Below the pieces are notes generated by a model. That model did no database searches. It saw only the letters and a program-made list of their open reading frames with translations, and was not told the DNA's origin. From a virus: DNA of 30,750 nucleotides. Of this stretch, positions 23,462 to 28,755 are shown piece after piece. The stretch lies in UHGV virus genome UHGV-1468954. One strand, written 5' to 3'. Every line of letters starts with the position of its first letter. Within the stretch, counting starts at the first letter, position 1. The position numbers and the translations under genes are program-made.

Positions 23462-24159
23462 ACACTTGCTCCTTTCAGTCCTAACTTAGCTTTAATTTCT
23501 GCGATCTTCGCCAGCGCCTGAACACGATTTAGAGGTCTGCCGCCCATGACAGGAAGTTGTTTTACTGGTTCAGGTATCGTCTCACCACGGTTAATTCGCG
23601 CTGTCATACAGGTCAGTTCATCGGCAGCCTTGCGTCGTAATTCCGCGTCAGTCAGCGCATTGGCCCGCATGTTCTGGTACAGGTTGGTAACCAGCCAGTA
23701 GTGCGCGTTCGATTTCCACGGATAAGACTCTGCATCCGGATACAGGCCTCGCTTCCGGCAATACTCGTAAACCATATCAACCAGCTCGCTGACGTTTGGC
23801 AGTCCGGCGATAACGGATGCTTCTTCCCGGCACCATGCAACAAACTGCCCGGGTGATGGCAGAAATGGTCGATTCTGCCGACGGGCTACGCGCATTCCTG
23901 CGTTAACCTGTTCCATTGTGGTGATCCCGTTTTCCCGGAAAGCCAGAACCCACTGGCGGCGGATTTCATTCAGTTCGTTCTGGTCACGGTTAGCCAGACT
24001 CGCCGGGAAAGTTGCCAGTAACTGGCTGAACACACCGTTGATGATCTGCGCTACCTGCTGTACCTGCGGCTTTTCGTCGTACTGTTCCGGCATGTTGTTG
24101 GCGATCCGACGCATCTGCTCACGGTCAAAATTAACCATCTGTGCGGCGATGTTTTTCAT
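23458..24159 (-). CDS. P: Replication protein P (DnaB helicase loader)
   Basis: 233 aa; MKNIAAQMVNFDREQMRRIANNMPEQYDEKPQVQQVAQIINGVFSQLLATFPASLANRDQNELNEIRRQW... matches lambda P. Confidence 0.9.
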   Translation of the reverse strand: MKNIAAQMVNFDREQMRRIANNMPEQYDEKPQVQQVAQIINGVFSQLLATFPASLANRDQNELNEIRRQWVLAFRENGITTMEQVNAGMRVARRQNRPFLPSPGQFVAWCREEASVIAGLPNVSELVDMVYEYCRKRGLYPDAESYPWKSNAHYWLVTNLYQNMRANALTDAELRRKAADELTCMTARINRGETIPEPVKQLPVMGGRPLNRVQALAKIAEIKAKLGLKGASV

Positions 24160-25055
24160 AAATCCACCCCGTAAATCCAGTCAGTGTTTGTCAGGTCGAG
24201 TTTTGGTTTGCTAGCTGTCACGCCTGCCTGTTGCTTGTTACGGTTGATTTCGAGTTGAGTCCACTTGTCGCGGAGTTTGGCCGGACTCAGCACGTTACCG
24301 GACCAGAAGTTGTCCTGGCATGCCCAGCGGAACAGCACGCACATGTCGCGGTGGTTACGTCCGTCACGTTCACGCATCAGGCGGATATCGTTAGCCCACC
24401 CTGCAAAATTTGGTTTTCTGGCTGATGGCGCGATGGTCTTCACCATGTCAAACATCCACTCTGCGGCGGTCAGGTCTTCTGCTGTCCCCCACTTGCTGCC
24501 GCTCTGAATTGCAGCATCCGGTTTCACCACAGAAAGGTCGTTTTCTGGCTGGTCAGAGGATTCGCCAGAATTCTCTGACGAATAATCTTTTCTTTTTTCT
24601 TTTGTAATAGTGTCTTTTGTGTCCCCCTGTTTTGAGGGATAGCAATCCCCCAATTTGAGGGATGTTTTATCCCTCGTTTTAGGGGATTTTCCCTCGTTTT
24701 GAGGGATACACCATTCTGAGATGTTTTTATTTGGTCCAAACATGCCGCCTTGCTGCTTGATAATATTCATTCTGACGAGTTCTAACTTGGCTTCATTGCA
24801 CCGTTTGACGGGTAACTTTGTAATCTCGCTAAGTTGAGAATCGGTGATTCTGTCCATTGGTTTATTCCATCCATAGGTTTTACGCAGAATGGCAAGCAGC
24901 ACTTTAAACTGTCGCTTGGTCAGATCTGCGCCTGAATAAGCCTCAAGCAGCATATTTGATAGTCTGGCGTAACCATCATCGAGATCTGCCACATTACGCT
25001 CCTGTTTGGCAAAGTTACCTCTGTAGAAGTTGAGTATTTTTGCTGTATTTGTCAT
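24156..25055 (-). CDS. O: Replication initiator O
   Basis: 299 aa; MTNTAKILNFYRGNFAKQ...; contains the ori iterons in its mid-region as in lambda. Confidence 0.9.
   Translation of the reverse strand: MTNTAKILNFYRGNFAKQERNVADLDDGYARLSNMLLEAYSGADLTKRQFKVLLAILRKTYGWNKPMDRITDSQLSEITKLPVKRCNEAKLELVRMNIIKQQGGMFGPNKNISEWCIPQNEGKSPKTRDKTSLKLGDCYPSKQGDTKDTITKEKRKDYSSENSGESSDQPENDLSVVKPDAAIQSGSKWGTAEDLTAAEWMFDMVKTIAPSARKPNFAGWANDIRLMRERDGRNHRDMCVLFRWACQDNFWSGNVLSPAKLRDKWTQLEINRNKQQAGVTASKPKLDLTNTDWIYGVDL
24585..24706. other. Lambda-type replication origin: four 17-18 bp iterons plus adjacent AT-rich region, inside O
   Basis: Iterons TCCCCCTGTTTTGAGGGA, TCCCCCAATTTGAGGGA, TCCCTCGTTTTAGGGGA, TCCCTCGTTTTGAGGGA at about 24622-24706; the AT-rich tract at about 24585-24620 is on the P-proximal side. 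Confidence 0.85.
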
Positions 25056-25064
25056 AATGACTCC

Positions 25065-25141
25065 TGTGGATTGATCCAGTAATGACCTCAGAATTCCATC
25101 TGGATTTGTTCAGAACGCTCGGTTGCCGCCGGGCGTTTTTT
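25065..25141 (+). ncRNA. oop: OOP-type antisense RNA (about 77 nt) covering the cII 3' end
   Basis: pO: TTGAGT (25030-35), 17-nt spacer, CATAAT (25053-58). Terminator stem CGCTCGG / CCGGGCG (one G-U pair) with a T6 run at 25116-25141. The predicted length equals lambda OOP. Confidence 0.6.
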
Positions 25142-25381
25142 ATTGGTGAGAATCGAAGCAACTTGTCGTGCCAATCGAGCCATGTCGTCGTCAACGACAC
25201 CCCATTCAAGAACAGCCAGAAGCATTCCCATTTTTGGGATGAAGCTGTCTTTCCATCGTGAAATTTGCGATTCATTAATCCCTAACGCGTCGGCAACCTT
25301 TCGCTGACCACGTACAGCAATTCGATTCAGGATGTTGCTTGTAATTGCATTCGCTTTCTTGCGAGTACTTGTAAGTTCCAT
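25088..25381 (-). CDS. cII: CII transcriptional activator; chimeric (divergent N-terminal/HTH region, lambda-like C-terminal part)
   Basis: Track ORF 25088..25468; start ATG 25381 gives 97 aa. C-terminal ...SQISRWK...LLAVLEWGVVDDDMARLARQVA.ILTNKKRPAATERSEQIQMEF matches lambda CII; residues 1-45 differ. Confidence 0.8.
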   Translation of the reverse strand: MELTSTRKKANAITSNILNRIAVRGQRKVADALGINESQISRWKDSFIPKMGMLLAVLEWGVVDDDMARLARQVASILTNKKRPAATERSEQIQMEF

Positions 25382-25439
25382 ATGTAAGTATTTCCTTAAC
25401 AAATAAGAAGTTATGCGCATCAACTTATGCGCGTTGTAT

Positions 25440-25482
25440 TCCCGCATTTCGGCGGGAATGAGGACCATGACTGTTAAAGAGC
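25440..25482 (-). promoter_or_regulatory. nutR (boxA plus boxB) between cro and cII
   Basis: Minus strand boxA GCTCTTTAACA (25472-82) and boxB hairpin UCCCGC-CGAAAU-GCGGGA (25440-57); the boxB is identical to that at nutL. Confidence 0.6.
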
Positions 25483-25490
25483 GGTGTTAC

Positions 25491-25691
25491 TTATGCAGTT
25501 GTTTTTTTGTTGCTTGGGAAGGGCTTTATTTCTTCCGCATAAACGCTTCCATCAGCGTTTATAGTTAAAAAAATATTTCGGCCTGCATGAATGGCCTTGT
25601 TGATCGCGCTTTGATATACGCCGAGATCTTTAGCCGTCTTGGTTTGACCAAAGCGCATTGCATAATCTTTCAGGGTTATGCGTTGTTCCAT
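25491..25691 (-). CDS. cro: Cro repressor
   Basis: 66 aa; [64 protein letters not shown] matches lambda Cro apart from about 2 residues. Confidence 0.9.
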
Positions 25692-25788: not shown

Positions 25789-26505
<717 letters not shown>

Positions 26506-26571
26506 TATATGTGAAATGCATATATTGATATAAATGCAGCAATATCAAATAGTTAAAAGGTTATATTTTTA

Positions 26572-26952
26572 ATGAATGATCTTGATAAGAAAAAGTACGA
26601 CCAAGTTATTGATTCTGTGAACTTCGCCCTTAGATCGTTGTCAGAGTTATTCGAAGCCCATGGAATGCATGGGATGTATGATCTAACGAATCCAAGCCTT
26701 GATGAGCTAAAATTAGTGTTTACAAGGATGAAAAACGGAGTTGACTCTATTGCTCAAAGCTTTGAGCATATGGTAGAGACAGCAAAGGATATGGATGCCG
26801 CAAGTGCAAGCATAAATGTTATGAACATCAAGCAAGGATTGATGTATGCTGAATCACTATTGCTTGCTGTAGAGAAATTAGACTATGATAAATGTGTGGA
26901 AGCAAATACGCAGATAAAAACCCACGATCTTCCACCAACCCAATGGCCTTAA
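26572..26952 (+). CDS. Hypothetical protein (126 aa) at the rexA/rexB position downstream of cI
   Basis: Same strand as cI, 66 bp downstream after an AT-rich spacer; visibly AT-rich coding sequence; predicted soluble and helical; no family recognised. Confidence 0.6.
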   Translation: MNDLDKKKYDQVIDSVNFALRSLSELFEAHGMHGMYDLTNPSLDELKLVFTRMKNGVDSIAQSFEHMVETAKDMDAASASINVMNIKQGLMYAESLLLAVEKLDYDKCVEANTQIKTHDLPPTQWP

Positions 26953-27021
26953 TAGTAAATCAAGATTTCATATAGTCTATTTGAACTAGGCTAGTACCAT
27001 AAAATAAACCGAGGAAACGCA

Positions 27022-27123
27022 ATGAAAACCATGTCCACTCTGCACAAAGATGCAATGACCCTGAGATCTCTCATTAACGAGATTCTGGCTCGCTCGTCAG
27101 CACACACCAAAAAAGCTGCATAA
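27022..27123 (+). CDS. Small ORF (33 aa) downstream of orf126
   Basis: MKTMSTLHKDAMTLRSLINEILARSSAHTKKAA; GAGGAA 5 nt upstream of the ATG; followed at 10 nt by an intrinsic terminator. Below the ORF-track size cut-off. Confidence 0.4.
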   Translation: MKTMSTLHKDAMTLRSLINEILARSSAHTKKAA

Positions 27124-27132
27124 TGCCTACAT

Positions 27133-27160
27133 AACCCGGCCTCATCGCCGGGTTTTCTTT
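27133..27160 (+). terminator. Intrinsic terminator closing the cI-orf126-orf33 unit (tImm-like)
   Basis: AACCCGGC-CTCATC-GCCGGGTT followed by TTCTTT. Confidence 0.65.
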
Positions 27161-27316
27161 GCCTCACGATCGCCCCACCTAAAAACACATAACCAATTGT
27201 ATTTATTTGAAAATTAATAGATACAACTCACTAAACATCGCAATTCAGATCTCTCGATCACCTTCCCAATCCACACAACCCTGCAAAAAATAAATCTATA
27301 TAAAAAACATACAGAT

Positions 27317-27379
27317 AACCATCTGCGGTGATAAATTATCTCTGGCGGTGTTGACACACATACCACTAGCGGTGATACT
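27317..27379 (+). promoter_or_regulatory. Left operator oL3-oL2-oL1 and promoter pL
   Basis: oL3 27317-33 AACCATCTGCGGTGATA; oL2 27337-53 TATCTCTGGCGGTGTTG; oL1 27361-77 TACCACTAGCGGTGATA. pL is TTGACA (27351-56), 17 nt, GATACT (27374-79). Confidence 0.85.
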
Positions 27380-27425
27380 AAACACATCAGCAGGACGCTG
27401 GCAGCCAAACGGAACAGATTGGCAG

Positions 27426-27466
27426 GCTCTTTAACATTGATGGGATTGTCCCGCCGAAATGCGGGA
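27426..27466 (+). promoter_or_regulatory. nutL (boxA plus boxB) in the pL leader
   Basis: boxA GCTCTTTAACA (27426-36); boxB hairpin TCCCGC-CGAAAT-GCGGGA (27449-66). Confidence 0.6.
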
Positions 27467-27573
27467 ACCAAAGAGTAGTTGGCTTTGGGGTGACGTGAAG
27501 TGCAGCTGCACGACGGCAACCGGAAGATAAGCACCCGGCGCGTCACCGCCAAAGTCAATCATCGGAGGTCAAC

Positions 27574-27879
27574 ATGACAGTCGTCATTACATATCTGGCT
27601 GACGATAACACCAGAAATCGCCGCAGAGCACGCAGACAGGCTCAACGTGAGCAGGCAATGCAAGAACAGCGACTGGCGCGAAAAATTGCGCTAAAGCTCT
27701 CTGGTTGCGTCAGAGCAGATAAAGCAGCATCACTCGGAAGCCTTCGCTGCAAGAAGGCAGAAGAAGTCGAGCGTAAACAGAATCGTATTTACTACCGCAA
27801 GCCACGCAGTGAAATGGGTGTGACCTGTTCAGGCCGCCAGAAGCAACGCGGAAAATCAATTCCAGCTTATTACGATTGA
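27574..27879 (+). CDS. N: N-family transcription antiterminator (not lambda-type N-terminus)
   Basis: 101 aa; GGAGG RBS; arginine-rich motif NTRNRRRARRQAQREQ near the N-terminus; C-terminal ...VTCSGRQKQRGKSIP resembles the lambda N C-terminus (memory); first gene downstream of pL/nutL. Confidence 0.7.
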   Translation: MTVVITYLADDNTRNRRRARRQAQREQAMQEQRLARKIALKLSGCVRADKAASLGSLRCKKAEEVERKQNRIYYRKPRSEMGVTCSGRQKQRGKSIPAYYD

Positions 27880-28553: not shown

Positions 28554-28614
28554 ATGCATACCAATAACGCTTCACTCGAGGCGTTTTTCGTTATGTATAA
28601 ATAAGGAGCACACC

Positions 28615-28755
28615 ATGCAATATGCCATTGCAGGGTGTCCTGTTGCTGGCTGCCCTTCCGAATCTTTACTTGAACGAATCACACGTAAATTACGTGATGG
28701 ATGGAAACGCCTTATCGACATACTTAATCAGCCAGGAGTTCCCAAGAATGGATAA
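28615..28755 (+). CDS. cIII: CIII-like protein (46 aa, C-terminally shorter than lambda CIII)
   Basis: Internal start of track ORF 28510..28755 with an AAGGAG RBS; MQYAIAGCPVAGCPSESLLERITRKLRDGWKRLIDILNQPGVPKNG matches lambda CIII residues 1-46 (memory). Confidence 0.75.
   Translation: MQYAIAGCPVAGCPSESLLERITRKLRDGWKRLIDILNQPGVPKNG

What the first reader, a model, noticed from the sequence alone, without database searches (positions are those of the whole stretch)
26506..27160. Unrecognised two-gene cassette replaces rexAB directly downstream of the cI repressor
In lambda, cI is followed by rexA and rexB, the classic prophage-encoded exclusion system, and the cI-downstream slot is a known hotspot for lysogen-expressed defence cargo. 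Here cI (near-identical to lambda) is followed by a 126-aa soluble, predicted helical protein and a 33-aa peptide, closed by a strong intrinsic terminator, before lambda-like oL/pL resumes. The cassette is visibly more AT-rich than its flanks, consistent with horizontal acquisition. I recognise neither protein (not RexA/RexB, not BstA-like, no TM segments).
Basis: partly seen in the sequence, partly recalled or inferred. Interest (0 to 1): 0.8.

Follow-up and report, generated by a model that had tools for sequence, protein, structure and literature searches.

The report
Unnamed protein-plus-peptide cassette behind cI
Where phage lambda carries its rexAB exclusion genes, this lambda-like phage carries a mobile, uncharacterised pair of genes, a small helical-bundle protein and a 33-residue peptide whose tail looks like a protease-degradation tag, which makes it a candidate toxin-antitoxin-like or defence module with no function yet shown.

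Summary
Homology to lambda stops one base after the cI stop codon (window 26506). It resumes at the rexB stop codon and tIMM terminator (27131). In between, 624 AT-rich bases (GC 0.375) replace the 1,397 bases of rexA and rexB.

The insert encodes a 126-aa acidic protein and a 33-aa basic peptide. AlphaFold2 models the protein as a four-helix bundle (pLDDT 90). Neither product matches Pfam, NCBIfam, PADLOC or a solved structure. The protein matches only PHROG 16322, of unknown function.

The pair is a real co-inherited unit. Every intact homologue examined, down to about 25% identity, is followed by a small ORF and a terminator. This holds in Escherichia, Klebsiella, Pectobacterium, Pantoea, Cronobacter, Proteus and Xenorhabdus, in an Aeromonas phage, and on a 3.9-kb Rep3/Mob plasmid-like contig.

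The peptide is under purifying selection and has the stronger ribosome-binding site in 11 of 13 loci. It always ends K-(A/V)-A, which matches ClpX C-terminal degrons.

My best reading is a mobile toxin-antitoxin-like pair, with a labile peptide and a stable bundle protein, expressed with the repressor in lysogens. That is inference at about 0.4 confidence. Defence activity is untested.

The parts
25792..26505 (+). cI repressor (HTH_3 + Peptidase_S24), 232/237 aa identical to lambda CI. It supplies the presumed promoter (pRM) for the cassette.
26507..27130 (+). Inserted segment of 624 bp that replaces lambda 35829-37225 (rexA-rexB). GC is 0.375.
   Evidence: blastn breakpoints; composition
26506..26571 (+). 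Leader between the cI stop and the 126-aa gene. It is AT-rich and contains two 7-bp inverted repeats, ATATATG-N7-CATATAT and TTGATAT-N10-ATATCAA. It also has two promoter-like hexamer pairs, which are no more frequent than chance. The Shine-Dalgarno match is weak.
   Evidence: sequence
26572..26952 (+). Gene for a 126-aa acidic (pI 4.8) soluble protein. It is modelled as a four-helix bundle (H3-37, H43-71, H74-101, H105-117). Conserved features are the G-M-x-G...P-S loop, an N-I-K-Q-G-L-x-x-A-E-x-L motif in helix 3, Cys108, and a C-terminal P-x-W. It belongs to PHROG 16322 and is identical to the protein cluster P0001, which NCBI labels 'MULTISPECIES: hypothetical protein [Enterobacteriaceae]'. 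E. coli prophage copies are annotated WP_021539111.1.
26953..27021 (+). 69-nt spacer with a weak hairpin and a strong Shine-Dalgarno (GAGGA) for the peptide gene.
27022..27123 (+). Gene for a 33-aa basic (pI 10.4) peptide, MKTMSTLHKDAMTLRSLINEILARSSAHTKKAA. It has a heptad-like hydrophobic core followed by a basic tail, and the family always ends K-(A/V)-A-COOH.
27133..27163 (+). Intrinsic terminator homologous to lambda tIMM. The stem is AACCCGGC/GCCGGGTT followed by TTCTTTG. The same stem closes the cassette in other genera.
27316..27379 (+). Lambda-like oL3-oL2-oL1 operators and pL. This is the downstream flank, not part of the cassette.

Best explanation
The cassette is a self-contained mobile unit (a moron) encoding a two-partner module with toxin-antitoxin-like logic. 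One partner is a stable, acidic four-helix-bundle protein of 126 aa. The other is a strongly translated 33-aa basic helical peptide whose invariant C-terminus, K-(A/V)-A-COOH, marks it for ClpXP-type proteolysis.

In this phage the pair sits between cI and the tIMM terminator. It should therefore be transcribed with the repressor from pRM in lysogens, as rexAB is in lambda.

Proposed mechanism:
- The peptide binds and neutralises the bundle protein as long as it is continuously made.
- When its synthesis is interrupted, the peptide is degraded. Interruptions could include shut-off of host transcription by a superinfecting phage, loss of the element, or loss of pRM activity.
- The freed bundle protein then acts on a host or phage target, giving exclusion or abortive infection in prophages and addiction on plasmids.

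Shown here: the anatomy, co-inheritance of the two genes, coding selection on both, the degron-like tail, the ribosome-binding-site asymmetry, the fold class, the mobility, and the recurrent placement behind repressor genes.

Inferred, not shown: co-transcription with cI, binding between the two products, proteolytic lability, which partner is the effector, and any toxic or anti-phage activity.
For: 1. Obligate pairing. Every intact homologue examined has a 33-53-aa ORF 25-84 nt downstream. A terminator hairpin plus T-run follows it in each of the thirteen loci whose downstream sequence was inspected, three of them distant. The set spans about 45 loci and roughly 25 distinct peptide sequences, down to about 25% identity in the large protein, across seven enterobacterial genera, an Aeromonas phage and metagenomic contigs.
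2. The peptide is coding. dN/dS is 0.04-0.35 where dS could be estimated, with dS saturated in the other pairs. The last codons vary at third positions, and the stop codon varies among TAA, TGA and TAG.
3. The C-terminus is invariant K-(A/V)-A across the family: KKAA, QKAA, RKAA, KRAA, KKVA, KEVA. This matches published ClpX degron classes. C-motif-1 is xAA (ssrA LAA, NAA, PAA, EAA). C-motif-2 includes MuA RRKKAI, YbaQ RAKKVA and PaaA HARKVA (PMC9775585 Table 2 and PMC12723719).
4. The peptide's Shine-Dalgarno pairing is stronger than the large gene's in 11 of 13 loci and within 0.1 kcal/mol or equal in the other two. Means are -6.9 and -3.2 kcal/mol (Wilcoxon p = 0.0005). This is the stoichiometry expected for an antitoxin made in excess.
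5. The charges are complementary, pI 4.8 against 10.4. The large protein is a bundle of three long helices and one short helix (pLDDT 90.3, pTM 0.83). Many fold neighbours are helical-bundle domains, including de novo designed bundles, one of them from a study of binders to helical peptides.
6. The contexts are those typical of selfish or defence cargo.
   - It lies directly behind and co-oriented with cI-type repressors of at least 8 different sequence types, in 30 of the 39 loci with upstream sequence.
   - It lies behind mnt in a P22-like immI region.
   - It lies at a prophage end beside what I read by eye as a tRNA gene.
   - It is flanked by IS1595 copies.
   - It is the only evident non-backbone cargo of a 3.9-kb Rep3 + MobA/MobC plasmid-like contig.
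7. All three damaged copies have lesions in the large gene with the peptide intact: L036 has an internal stop, L054 a 21-nt in-frame deletion, and L012 an N-terminal truncation.
8. The slot is known to hold lysogen-expressed abortive-infection cargo, rexAB and bstA (PMC8585504).
Against: - There is no experimental data of any kind.
- The large protein has no recognisable toxin fold or catalytic motif. It has no match in Pfam, NCBIfam, PADLOC or the PDB, and the fold matches are generic helical bundles.
- The peptide has no DNA-binding domain, so classical type II autoregulation is absent.
- The charge pattern is the reverse of the usual one, which is a basic toxin with an acidic antitoxin.
- The lesion asymmetry (3 of 3) is not significant given the 3.7-fold larger target. 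About half of random cases would look the same.
- An internal promoter for the peptide is not consistently predicted (6 of 13 loci).
- If expression depends only on pRM, prophage induction would itself free the effector. That needs an explanation.
- The K-(A/V)-A tail could serve partner binding rather than proteolysis.
- The peptide's amphipathicity is only modestly above shuffled controls.
Confidence: 0.4

Rival explanations
1. The roles are reversed. The basic, strongly translated, rapidly degraded 33-aa peptide is the active inhibitor, acting as small phage peptides such as Kil do on host proteins. The acidic bundle protein is its antidote, chaperone or proteolytic adaptor, as in type VI SocAB, where the toxin is the ClpXP substrate.
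For: The charge pattern fits, with a basic small partner and an acidic large partner. The degron-like tail sits on the peptide. The peptide has a strong ribosome-binding site. That SocB is the labile partner and that Kil-type peptides are inhibitors comes from my own knowledge and was not checked here.
Against: Three loci keep an intact peptide gene while the large gene is broken. That would leave an unopposed toxin. In addition, the large gene's helix-3 motif is more strongly conserved than anything in the peptide core.
Confidence: 0.15
2. It is a lysogeny or host-physiology modulator rather than a killing module. The pair would tune the repressor switch, the SOS response or ClpXP proteolysis. 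For example, the peptide could act as a competing ClpX substrate that stabilises ClpXP targets such as the O replication protein. This would parallel the reported non-exclusion roles of RexA (biasing the switch) and RexB (blocking degradation of labile proteins).
For: The cassette is recurrently placed inside repressor operons of at least 8 immunity types. Its neighbours elsewhere are dinI with what I read as a LexA box, and umuDC-like genes. There is precedent for RexA and RexB roles outside exclusion (bioRxiv 10.1101/2021.04.19.439022; PMC4255059). The window's O protein keeps a near-match to the lambda-O ClpX N-degron: TNTAKILNFYRG against lambda's TNTAKILNFGR (PMC12723719).
Against: The same pair occurs with no repressor nearby. 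Examples are a small Rep3/Mob plasmid-like contig, an IS1595-flanked locus, and prophage ends. A pure decoy would not need an obligatory 126-aa partner conserved across the whole family.
Confidence: 0.2
3. The two ORFs are chance or decaying reading frames in a non-coding mosaic joint and have no function.
For: Neither product has database annotation. The region is AT-rich and lies at a recombination hotspot.
Against: The large protein belongs to a conserved family with invariant residues: 18 clusters at 50% identity, and E = 2.2e-68 against the profile built from its own close relatives. The peptide is under purifying selection and is always present. The AlphaFold2 model is confident, at pLDDT 90.
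Confidence: 0.02

Closest known systems
Lambda rexA-rexB (cI-operon abortive-infection cargo)
   Same: The genomic position is identical, between the cI stop codon and tIMM. It is also a two-gene cargo, presumably transcribed from pRM in lysogens, and it ends at the homologous terminator.
   Different: There is no sequence or fold relationship. The insert is 624 bp against 1,397 bp. It has no membrane protein, whereas RexB is an integral membrane protein. It has no RexA-like protein and no PADLOC match.
Type II toxin-antitoxin modules with a tiny, non-DNA-binding, protease-labile antitoxin and the toxin gene first (for example paaA2-parE2 of O157 cryptic prophages; higBA-type gene order)
   Same: The features in common are two adjacent co-oriented genes, a small helical partner lacking a DNA-binding domain, a degron-like tail, a stronger ribosome-binding site on the small partner, and residence on prophages and plasmids. 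The paaR2-paaA2-parE2 prophage system turned up in the literature search (PMC8630535). Its details come from my own knowledge.
   Different: The large protein is not ParE/RelE, MazF, PIN, HEPN, Doc or any other known toxin family. At 33 aa the peptide is about half the size of PaaA2. Toxicity, binding and lability are all untested.
tomB-hha (YmoB-YmoA) pair
Morons of lambdoid and HK97-like phages (autonomous cargo units with their own terminator, inserted between conserved genes)
   Same: The same unit, ending in a terminator, appears in unrelated positions in different phages and has deviant base composition.
   Different: 'Moron' describes the packaging, not the function. In this window no convincing promoter of its own is seen, and expression is probably borrowed from cI.

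Membership tests
RexAB exclusion system | Homologues of RexA (279 aa, DNA-binding sensor) and RexB (144 aa, polytopic membrane protein) | tested here: not met
   Lambda homology stops at the cI stop codon and resumes at the rexB stop codon. There are no PADLOC, Pfam or PHROG Rex hits. There is no TM-like segment.
RexAB exclusion system | Location between cI and tIMM, in the pRM transcription unit | tested here: met
   Breakpoints lie at 26506 and 27131, and the terminator is homologous to lambda 35828-35780. Transcription itself was not tested.
Type II toxin-antitoxin module | Two adjacent co-oriented genes inherited together | tested here: met
   The small ORF is present after every intact homologue examined.
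Type II toxin-antitoxin module | Antitoxin is proteolytically labile (Lon or Clp) | tested here: inconclusive
   The invariant C-terminal K-(A/V)-A matches ClpX C-motif-1 and C-motif-2 by sequence. Degradation was not measured.
Type II toxin-antitoxin module | Toxin belongs to a known growth-inhibiting fold or shows toxicity | tested here: not met
   No known toxin family was found by Pfam, NCBIfam, PDB sequence or fold search. Toxicity itself cannot be tested with these tools.
Type II toxin-antitoxin module | Antitoxin carries a DNA-binding domain and autoregulates the operon | tested here: not met
   The 33-aa peptide has no domain hit and is too short for an HTH, RHH or AbrB fold.
Type II toxin-antitoxin module | Direct protein-protein neutralisation | not testable with these tools
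   Co-folding of two chains was not available. The only support is complementary charge and bundle-plus-helix geometry.
TomB/YmoB-Hha | Sequence homology to TomB and an Hha-family partner | tested here: not met
   hhalign gives probability 0.3% against E. coli TomB, and no Pfam hit was found. The partner is 33 aa.
Known anti-phage defence systems (PADLOC-DB 2.0, including BstA and the PD-lambda and PDC candidates) | Match to any system's protein models | tested here: not met
   The window proteins give no hit. Scattered sub-threshold hits appear in only 1-2 of 31 family members.
Phage moron | Discrete unit with its own terminator, deviant composition, and presence in different genomic positions in different phages | tested here: met
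ClpX C-terminal degron (C-motif-1 or C-motif-2) | C-terminal xAA-COOH, or basic residues followed by a small hydrophobic pair | tested here: met
   All of about 25 distinct peptides end K-(A/V)-A, compared with the motif tables in PMC9775585 and PMC12723719. This is a match of sequence pattern only.

The most novel reading that the evidence does not exclude
This is a previously unrecognised family of addiction or abortive-infection modules. A 33-aa peptide tagged with a ClpXP degron is the labile antidote of a non-enzymatic four-helix-bundle effector with no relative among known toxins. The pair would work as a sensor of interrupted transcription. It rides in the repressor operon of lambdoid prophages of several genera and also on small plasmids.
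Probability: 0.3. Interest if true: 0.75.

Novelty: new variant of a known kind. Interest (0 to 1): 0.6.

Why it matters
The cI-N interval of lambdoid phages is one of the most strongly expressed prophage regions in lysogens. It is the home of rexAB and bstA, so uncharacterised cargo there is a prime source of new lysogen-protecting functions.

This cassette is compact (about 0.6 kb) and mobile across prophages of several genera. It also sits on a plasmid-like contig and has no homology to any described system.

The analysis gives it a concrete, cheap-to-test mechanistic handle: an invariant ClpX-degron-like tail on an obligatory peptide partner. If the model holds, it adds a new effector fold and one of the smallest protein antitoxins to the toxin-antitoxin and defence repertoire. 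If it fails, the pair is still a conserved lysogen-expressed module of unknown role, present in 32 of the 5,426 complete E. coli genomes searched (0.6%).

Tried and rejected
- **Family searches gave nothing.** Pfam, NCBIfam and PADLOC scans of both products and of 22-31 family members gave only scattered sub-threshold hits: HMD, DUF7373_C, ATG17-like, LmuB, ZorA. I rejected these as noise.
- **PDB sequence search gave nothing.** A profile search against PDB sequences found nothing below E = 0.02.
- **The first structure model was too weak.** Built from 20 close sequences, it reached pLDDT 68, and its Foldseek search of the PDB gave no significant hit. I rebuilt it with 31 sequences including distant members and obtained pLDDT 90.
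- **HEPN-like toxin was rejected.** No conserved Rx4-6H motif appears in the alignment.
- **Apparent truncated homologues are gene-calling artefacts.** P0022 and P0023 are full-length ORFs in the DNA. P0046 is a gene call starting at an internal Met. The locus itself, L054, carries a real 21-nt in-frame deletion in an otherwise full-length ORF.
- **The lesion asymmetry is not significant.** The 3 of 3 count does not stand out once gene size is considered.
- **No consistent internal promoter for the peptide** was found (6 of 13 loci).
- **Hairpins in the spacer between the two genes** are present but do not differ from shuffled sequence.
- **Rfam finds no RNA family in the cassette**.
- **Isolated phages, PLSDB and the literature add little.** Among isolated phages only Aeromonas phage AsXd-1 carries a homologue, and PLSDB plasmids have none. 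A search of the paper library for WP_021539111, the accession of the E. coli prophage copies, found nothing.
Full report
**1. What is in the window**

The window runs opposite to the standard lambda map.
- O (24156-25055), a cII-like gene (25088-25468) and cro (25491-25691) are on the minus strand.
- cI (25792-26505) is on the plus strand.
- After cI come a 126-aa ORF (26572-26952) and a 33-aa ORF (27022-27123), then a hairpin terminator, then oL/pL and an N-like gene (27574-27879).

A direct comparison with lambda fixes the boundaries.
- Homology at 91.8% identity runs from the replication genes through window 26506, one base past the cI stop codon (lambda 37226).
- It resumes at window 27131 (lambda 35828, the rexB stop codon) and continues at 89% to 27398, just past pL.
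- So 624 bp (26507-27130) stand exactly where lambda has the 1,397 bp of rexA and rexB.
- CI is 232/237 aa identical to lambda CI.

The terminator stem spans 27133-27154 and is followed by TTTTCTTT.
- It folds at -15.9 kcal/mol (z = -3.07).
- It is homologous to the terminator just downstream of lambda rexB, tIMM, where pRM and pLIT transcripts end (bioRxiv 10.1101/2021.04.19.439022).

The insert has GC 0.375, against 0.455 for cI and 0.47 for the contig. Only 0.2% of equal-sized windows are as low.

The window itself is IMG/VR contig UViG_3300045988_037354.

**2. Both reading frames are real genes and form one unit**

The 126-aa protein matches PHROG 16322 end to end (E = 8e-89, function unknown). 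It is 100% identical to a protein cluster that NCBI labels 'MULTISPECIES: hypothetical protein [Enterobacteriaceae]'. The E. coli prophage copies are annotated WP_021539111.1, 'hypothetical protein'.

The family is very small.
- It has 23 clusters at 90% identity among 5.8 billion proteins.
- It has 18 clusters at 50% identity among 1.84 billion representatives.
- Apart from four short fragment entries, all members are 109-134 aa.

At every locus I could read, the gene is followed by a small ORF after 25-84 nt. An intrinsic terminator follows it in each of the thirteen loci whose downstream sequence I inspected. The loci are:
- E. coli, Klebsiella, Pectobacterium, Pantoea and Cronobacter;
- Proteus and Xenorhabdus, at 38-40% identity;
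- Aeromonas phage AsXd-1, at 46% identity;
- the most distant metagenomic members, at roughly 25-32% identity.

About 25 distinct peptide sequences were recovered.

Evidence that the peptide is coding:
- Pairwise codon analysis gives dN/dS of 0.04-0.35 in the pairs where dS could be estimated. dS was saturated in the rest.
- The final codons differ at third positions, and the stop codon varies.
- Selection is therefore on the peptide, not on an RNA.

**3. Properties of the two products**

The large protein:
- It is acidic (pI 4.8) and soluble.
- A first AlphaFold2 model from close homologues was weak (pLDDT 68).
- Adding distant members raised it to pLDDT 90.3 and pTM 0.83. The model is a bundle of three long helices (3-37, 43-71, 74-101) and a short fourth helix (105-117).
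- Conserved features are a G-M-x-G...N-P-S loop between helices 1 and 2, an almost invariant N-I-K-Q-G-L-x-x-A-E-x-L stretch in helix 3, Cys108 in helix 4, and a C-terminal P-x-W.
- TomB was a tempting analogue because of its size and gene order. A profile comparison with E. coli TomB gives probability 0.3%.
- Pfam, NCBIfam, PADLOC and PDB sequence searches give nothing consistent for single sequences or across 22-31 members.

The peptide:
- It is basic (pI 10.4).
- It has a heptad-like core, L-x-x-L-(H/Y)-x-x-(A/S)-(L/M)-x-L-x-x-(L/I)-(I/M)-x-(E/D)-(I/L)-x-x-(R/K)-(A/S), followed by a basic tail.
- Its last three residues are K-(A/V)-A in every member, even where the rest has diverged to about 20-30% identity.
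- This fits the published C-terminal recognition classes of ClpX. C-motif-1 is xAA (ssrA LAA, NAA, PAA, EAA). C-motif-2 includes MuA RRKKAI, YbaQ RAKKVA and PaaA HARKVA (PMC9775585 Table 2; PMC12723719). The Proteus peptide ends ...SKKVA, the same last four residues as YbaQ.
- Its Shine-Dalgarno pairing is stronger than that of the large gene in 11 of 13 diverged loci and equal or within 0.1 kcal/mol in the other two. Means are -6.9 and -3.2 kcal/mol (Wilcoxon p = 0.0005). The loci are not fully independent.

**4. Where the unit occurs**

In complete E. coli genomes the cassette is rare. It is in 32 of 5,426, always at 99% identity or more, on the chromosome. For comparison, lambda-type cI is in 618 genomes and rexAB in 99.

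Its most common position is directly behind, and co-oriented with, a cI-type (HTH + S24) repressor.
- This holds for 30 of the 39 loci with upstream sequence.
- At least eight different repressor sequence types are involved. They include lambda-type cI, a second E. coli immunity type, several Proteus types, and the phage with an 85%-identical homologue.
- In Proteus locus L013, other cargo lies between cI and the cassette: a 50-aa ORF and a DUF3024 protein.
- The same cI allele as in the window carries a P63C-domain gene instead in other E. coli.
- This agrees with the literature, which describes the cI-N interval as a mosaic hotspot holding rexAB and bstA (PMC8585504).

The unit is not tied to cI. 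It also lies:
- behind mnt in the immI region of a P22-like Pectobacterium prophage;
- at a prophage end in Klebsiella, next to what I read by eye as a tRNA gene, and opposite umuDC-like genes there and in Cronobacter;
- behind a dinI-like gene with what I read as a LexA box, next to tail-fibre genes, in Aeromonas phage AsXd-1;
- behind an HTH gene, flanked by IS1595 copies;
- as the only evident non-backbone cargo of a 3.9-kb contig that otherwise encodes Rep3, MobA and MobC, that is, a small mobilisable plasmid.

Upstream sequences are unrelated between contexts. The conserved unit is therefore gene, spacer, peptide gene and terminator. The Enterobacteriaceae and Aeromonas copies even share the ACCCGGC...GCCGGGT terminator stem with lambda tIMM. 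That shared stem may be the homology that let the unit replace rexAB.

**5. How it most likely works**

The features of the pair are these:
- it is obligatory and compact;
- one partner is a tiny, highly translated peptide with a conserved protease-recognition tail, and the other is a larger, more weakly translated folded protein;
- the charges are complementary;
- it occurs on prophages, on a plasmid-like contig and on an IS-flanked islet.

The arrangement that best fits is a toxin-antitoxin-like module. Continuous synthesis of a labile peptide would hold a stable effector in check.

In this phage the unit lies inside the cI-tIMM transcription unit, so it should be made in lysogens from pRM. 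Interruption of that synthesis would remove the peptide and free the bundle protein. The interruption could be host shut-off by a superinfecting phage or loss of the element.

This gives exclusion or abortive infection in the prophage setting and addiction on the plasmid. I give it about 0.4.

The steps that are shown are anatomy, co-inheritance, coding constraint, tail motif, ribosome-binding-site asymmetry, fold class and genomic contexts. Everything about binding, lability, toxicity and phage resistance is inferred.

Points against the model:
- There is no known toxin fold.
- The peptide has no DNA-binding domain.
- The charge pattern is reversed relative to most type II pairs.
- No consistent internal promoter is predicted.
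- It is unclear how the phage would avoid triggering the module on its own induction.

Three damaged copies all hit the large gene and spare the peptide (L036, L054, L012). That is the direction expected if the large protein is the harmful partner. Given the difference in gene size it is not statistically meaningful.

Rivals:
- **Reversed roles (0.15).** The peptide is the inhibitor, and the bundle protein is its antidote or adaptor.
- **Non-lethal modulator (0.2).** The pair tunes the lysogenic switch, the SOS response or ClpXP. One version has the peptide acting as a competing ClpX substrate. This echoes the reported roles of RexA and RexB outside exclusion.
- **Non-functional ORFs.** This is excluded by the conservation data.

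**6. Comparison with what is known, and novelty**

The unit works like rexAB only in where and when it is probably expressed. It is not a Rex system.

It resembles type II toxin-antitoxin modules in logic, especially those with very small antitoxins that do not bind DNA and with the toxin gene first. It fails the tests for a known toxin family and for an autoregulating antitoxin.

It is a moron in the structural sense. It matches no model of known or candidate defence systems.

I therefore rate it a new variant of a known kind, namely lysogen-expressed two-gene cargo with toxin-antitoxin-like design. It is not a member of any described family, and without functional data I do not call it categorically new.

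This analysis adds the mobile-unit definition, the family-wide peptide partner and the degron-like tail, which make the hypothesis directly testable.

Noticed in passing
window 28602-28660 (+): There is a full-length match to Rfam Lambda_thermo, the cIII thermoregulator (84 bits, E = 3e-19). The cIII region and its RNA thermometer are therefore lambda-like.
   Followed up: no
window 27399-27879: Homology to lambda ends just past pL (27398). The N-like protein at 27574-27879 hits PHROG 271 and only weakly the Pfam N_peptide family. The phage therefore combines lambda immunity (cI, oL, oR) with a different N/nutL module.
   Followed up: partly
window 24156-25055 (-), N-terminus of O: The O replication protein starts MTNTAKILNFYRGN. 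This keeps most of the lambda-O N-terminal ClpX degron (TNTAKILNFGR in PMC12723719), which is relevant to the idea that the cassette peptide might compete for ClpX.
   Followed up: no
L009 3207-4118 (E. coli WS4437A-1): A cI gene that matches the window's over its first 709 of 714 bases at 99.9% identity is followed by a 303-aa P63C-domain gene overlapping the cI stop. This is another alternative cargo of the same slot.
   Followed up: partly
L013 5196-5698 (Proteus viral contig): Extra cargo lies between cI and the cassette: a 50-aa ORF and a 113-aa DUF3024 protein. The slot can evidently stack several units.
   Followed up: partly
L012 6001-6530 (Xenorhabdus budapestensis): The large gene is reduced to its last 52 codons while the peptide gene is intact. 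A second small ORF of 42 aa, ending ...TSKAA, lies between the peptide gene and the terminator.
   Followed up: partly
window 26506-26548: The cassette leader contains two AT-rich 7-bp inverted repeats, ATATATG-N7-CATATAT and TTGATAT-N10-ATATCAA. They could be protein-binding sites or chance palindromes. The leader sequence is identical in the E. coli copies whose upstream sequence I read (L002, L054), and upstream sequences in other genera are unrelated.
   Followed up: no
window 27133-27163; L004, L005, L008, L003, L037, L040 downstream of the peptide gene: Cassettes in unrelated genomic contexts and genera end with the same terminator stem (A/G)CCCGG(C/T)...(G/A)CCGGGT as lambda tIMM. The Pectobacterium copy even shares the TTTTCTTTGCCTCA tail. 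The terminator may act as a portable recombination joint.
   Followed up: partly
window 25088-25468 (-): The cII-like ORF is mosaic. Its C-terminal half is almost identical to lambda CII, while the N-terminal half, including the HTH region, differs. The listed ORF has a probable upstream extension.
   Followed up: no
L051 (3,908-bp Logan contig, GC 33%): This small Rep3 + MobA/MobC plasmid-like contig has iteron-like repeats (ATGACTACAGATTTATGGT) at both ends. Its host is unknown, and the cassette is its only evident accessory content.
   Followed up: partly
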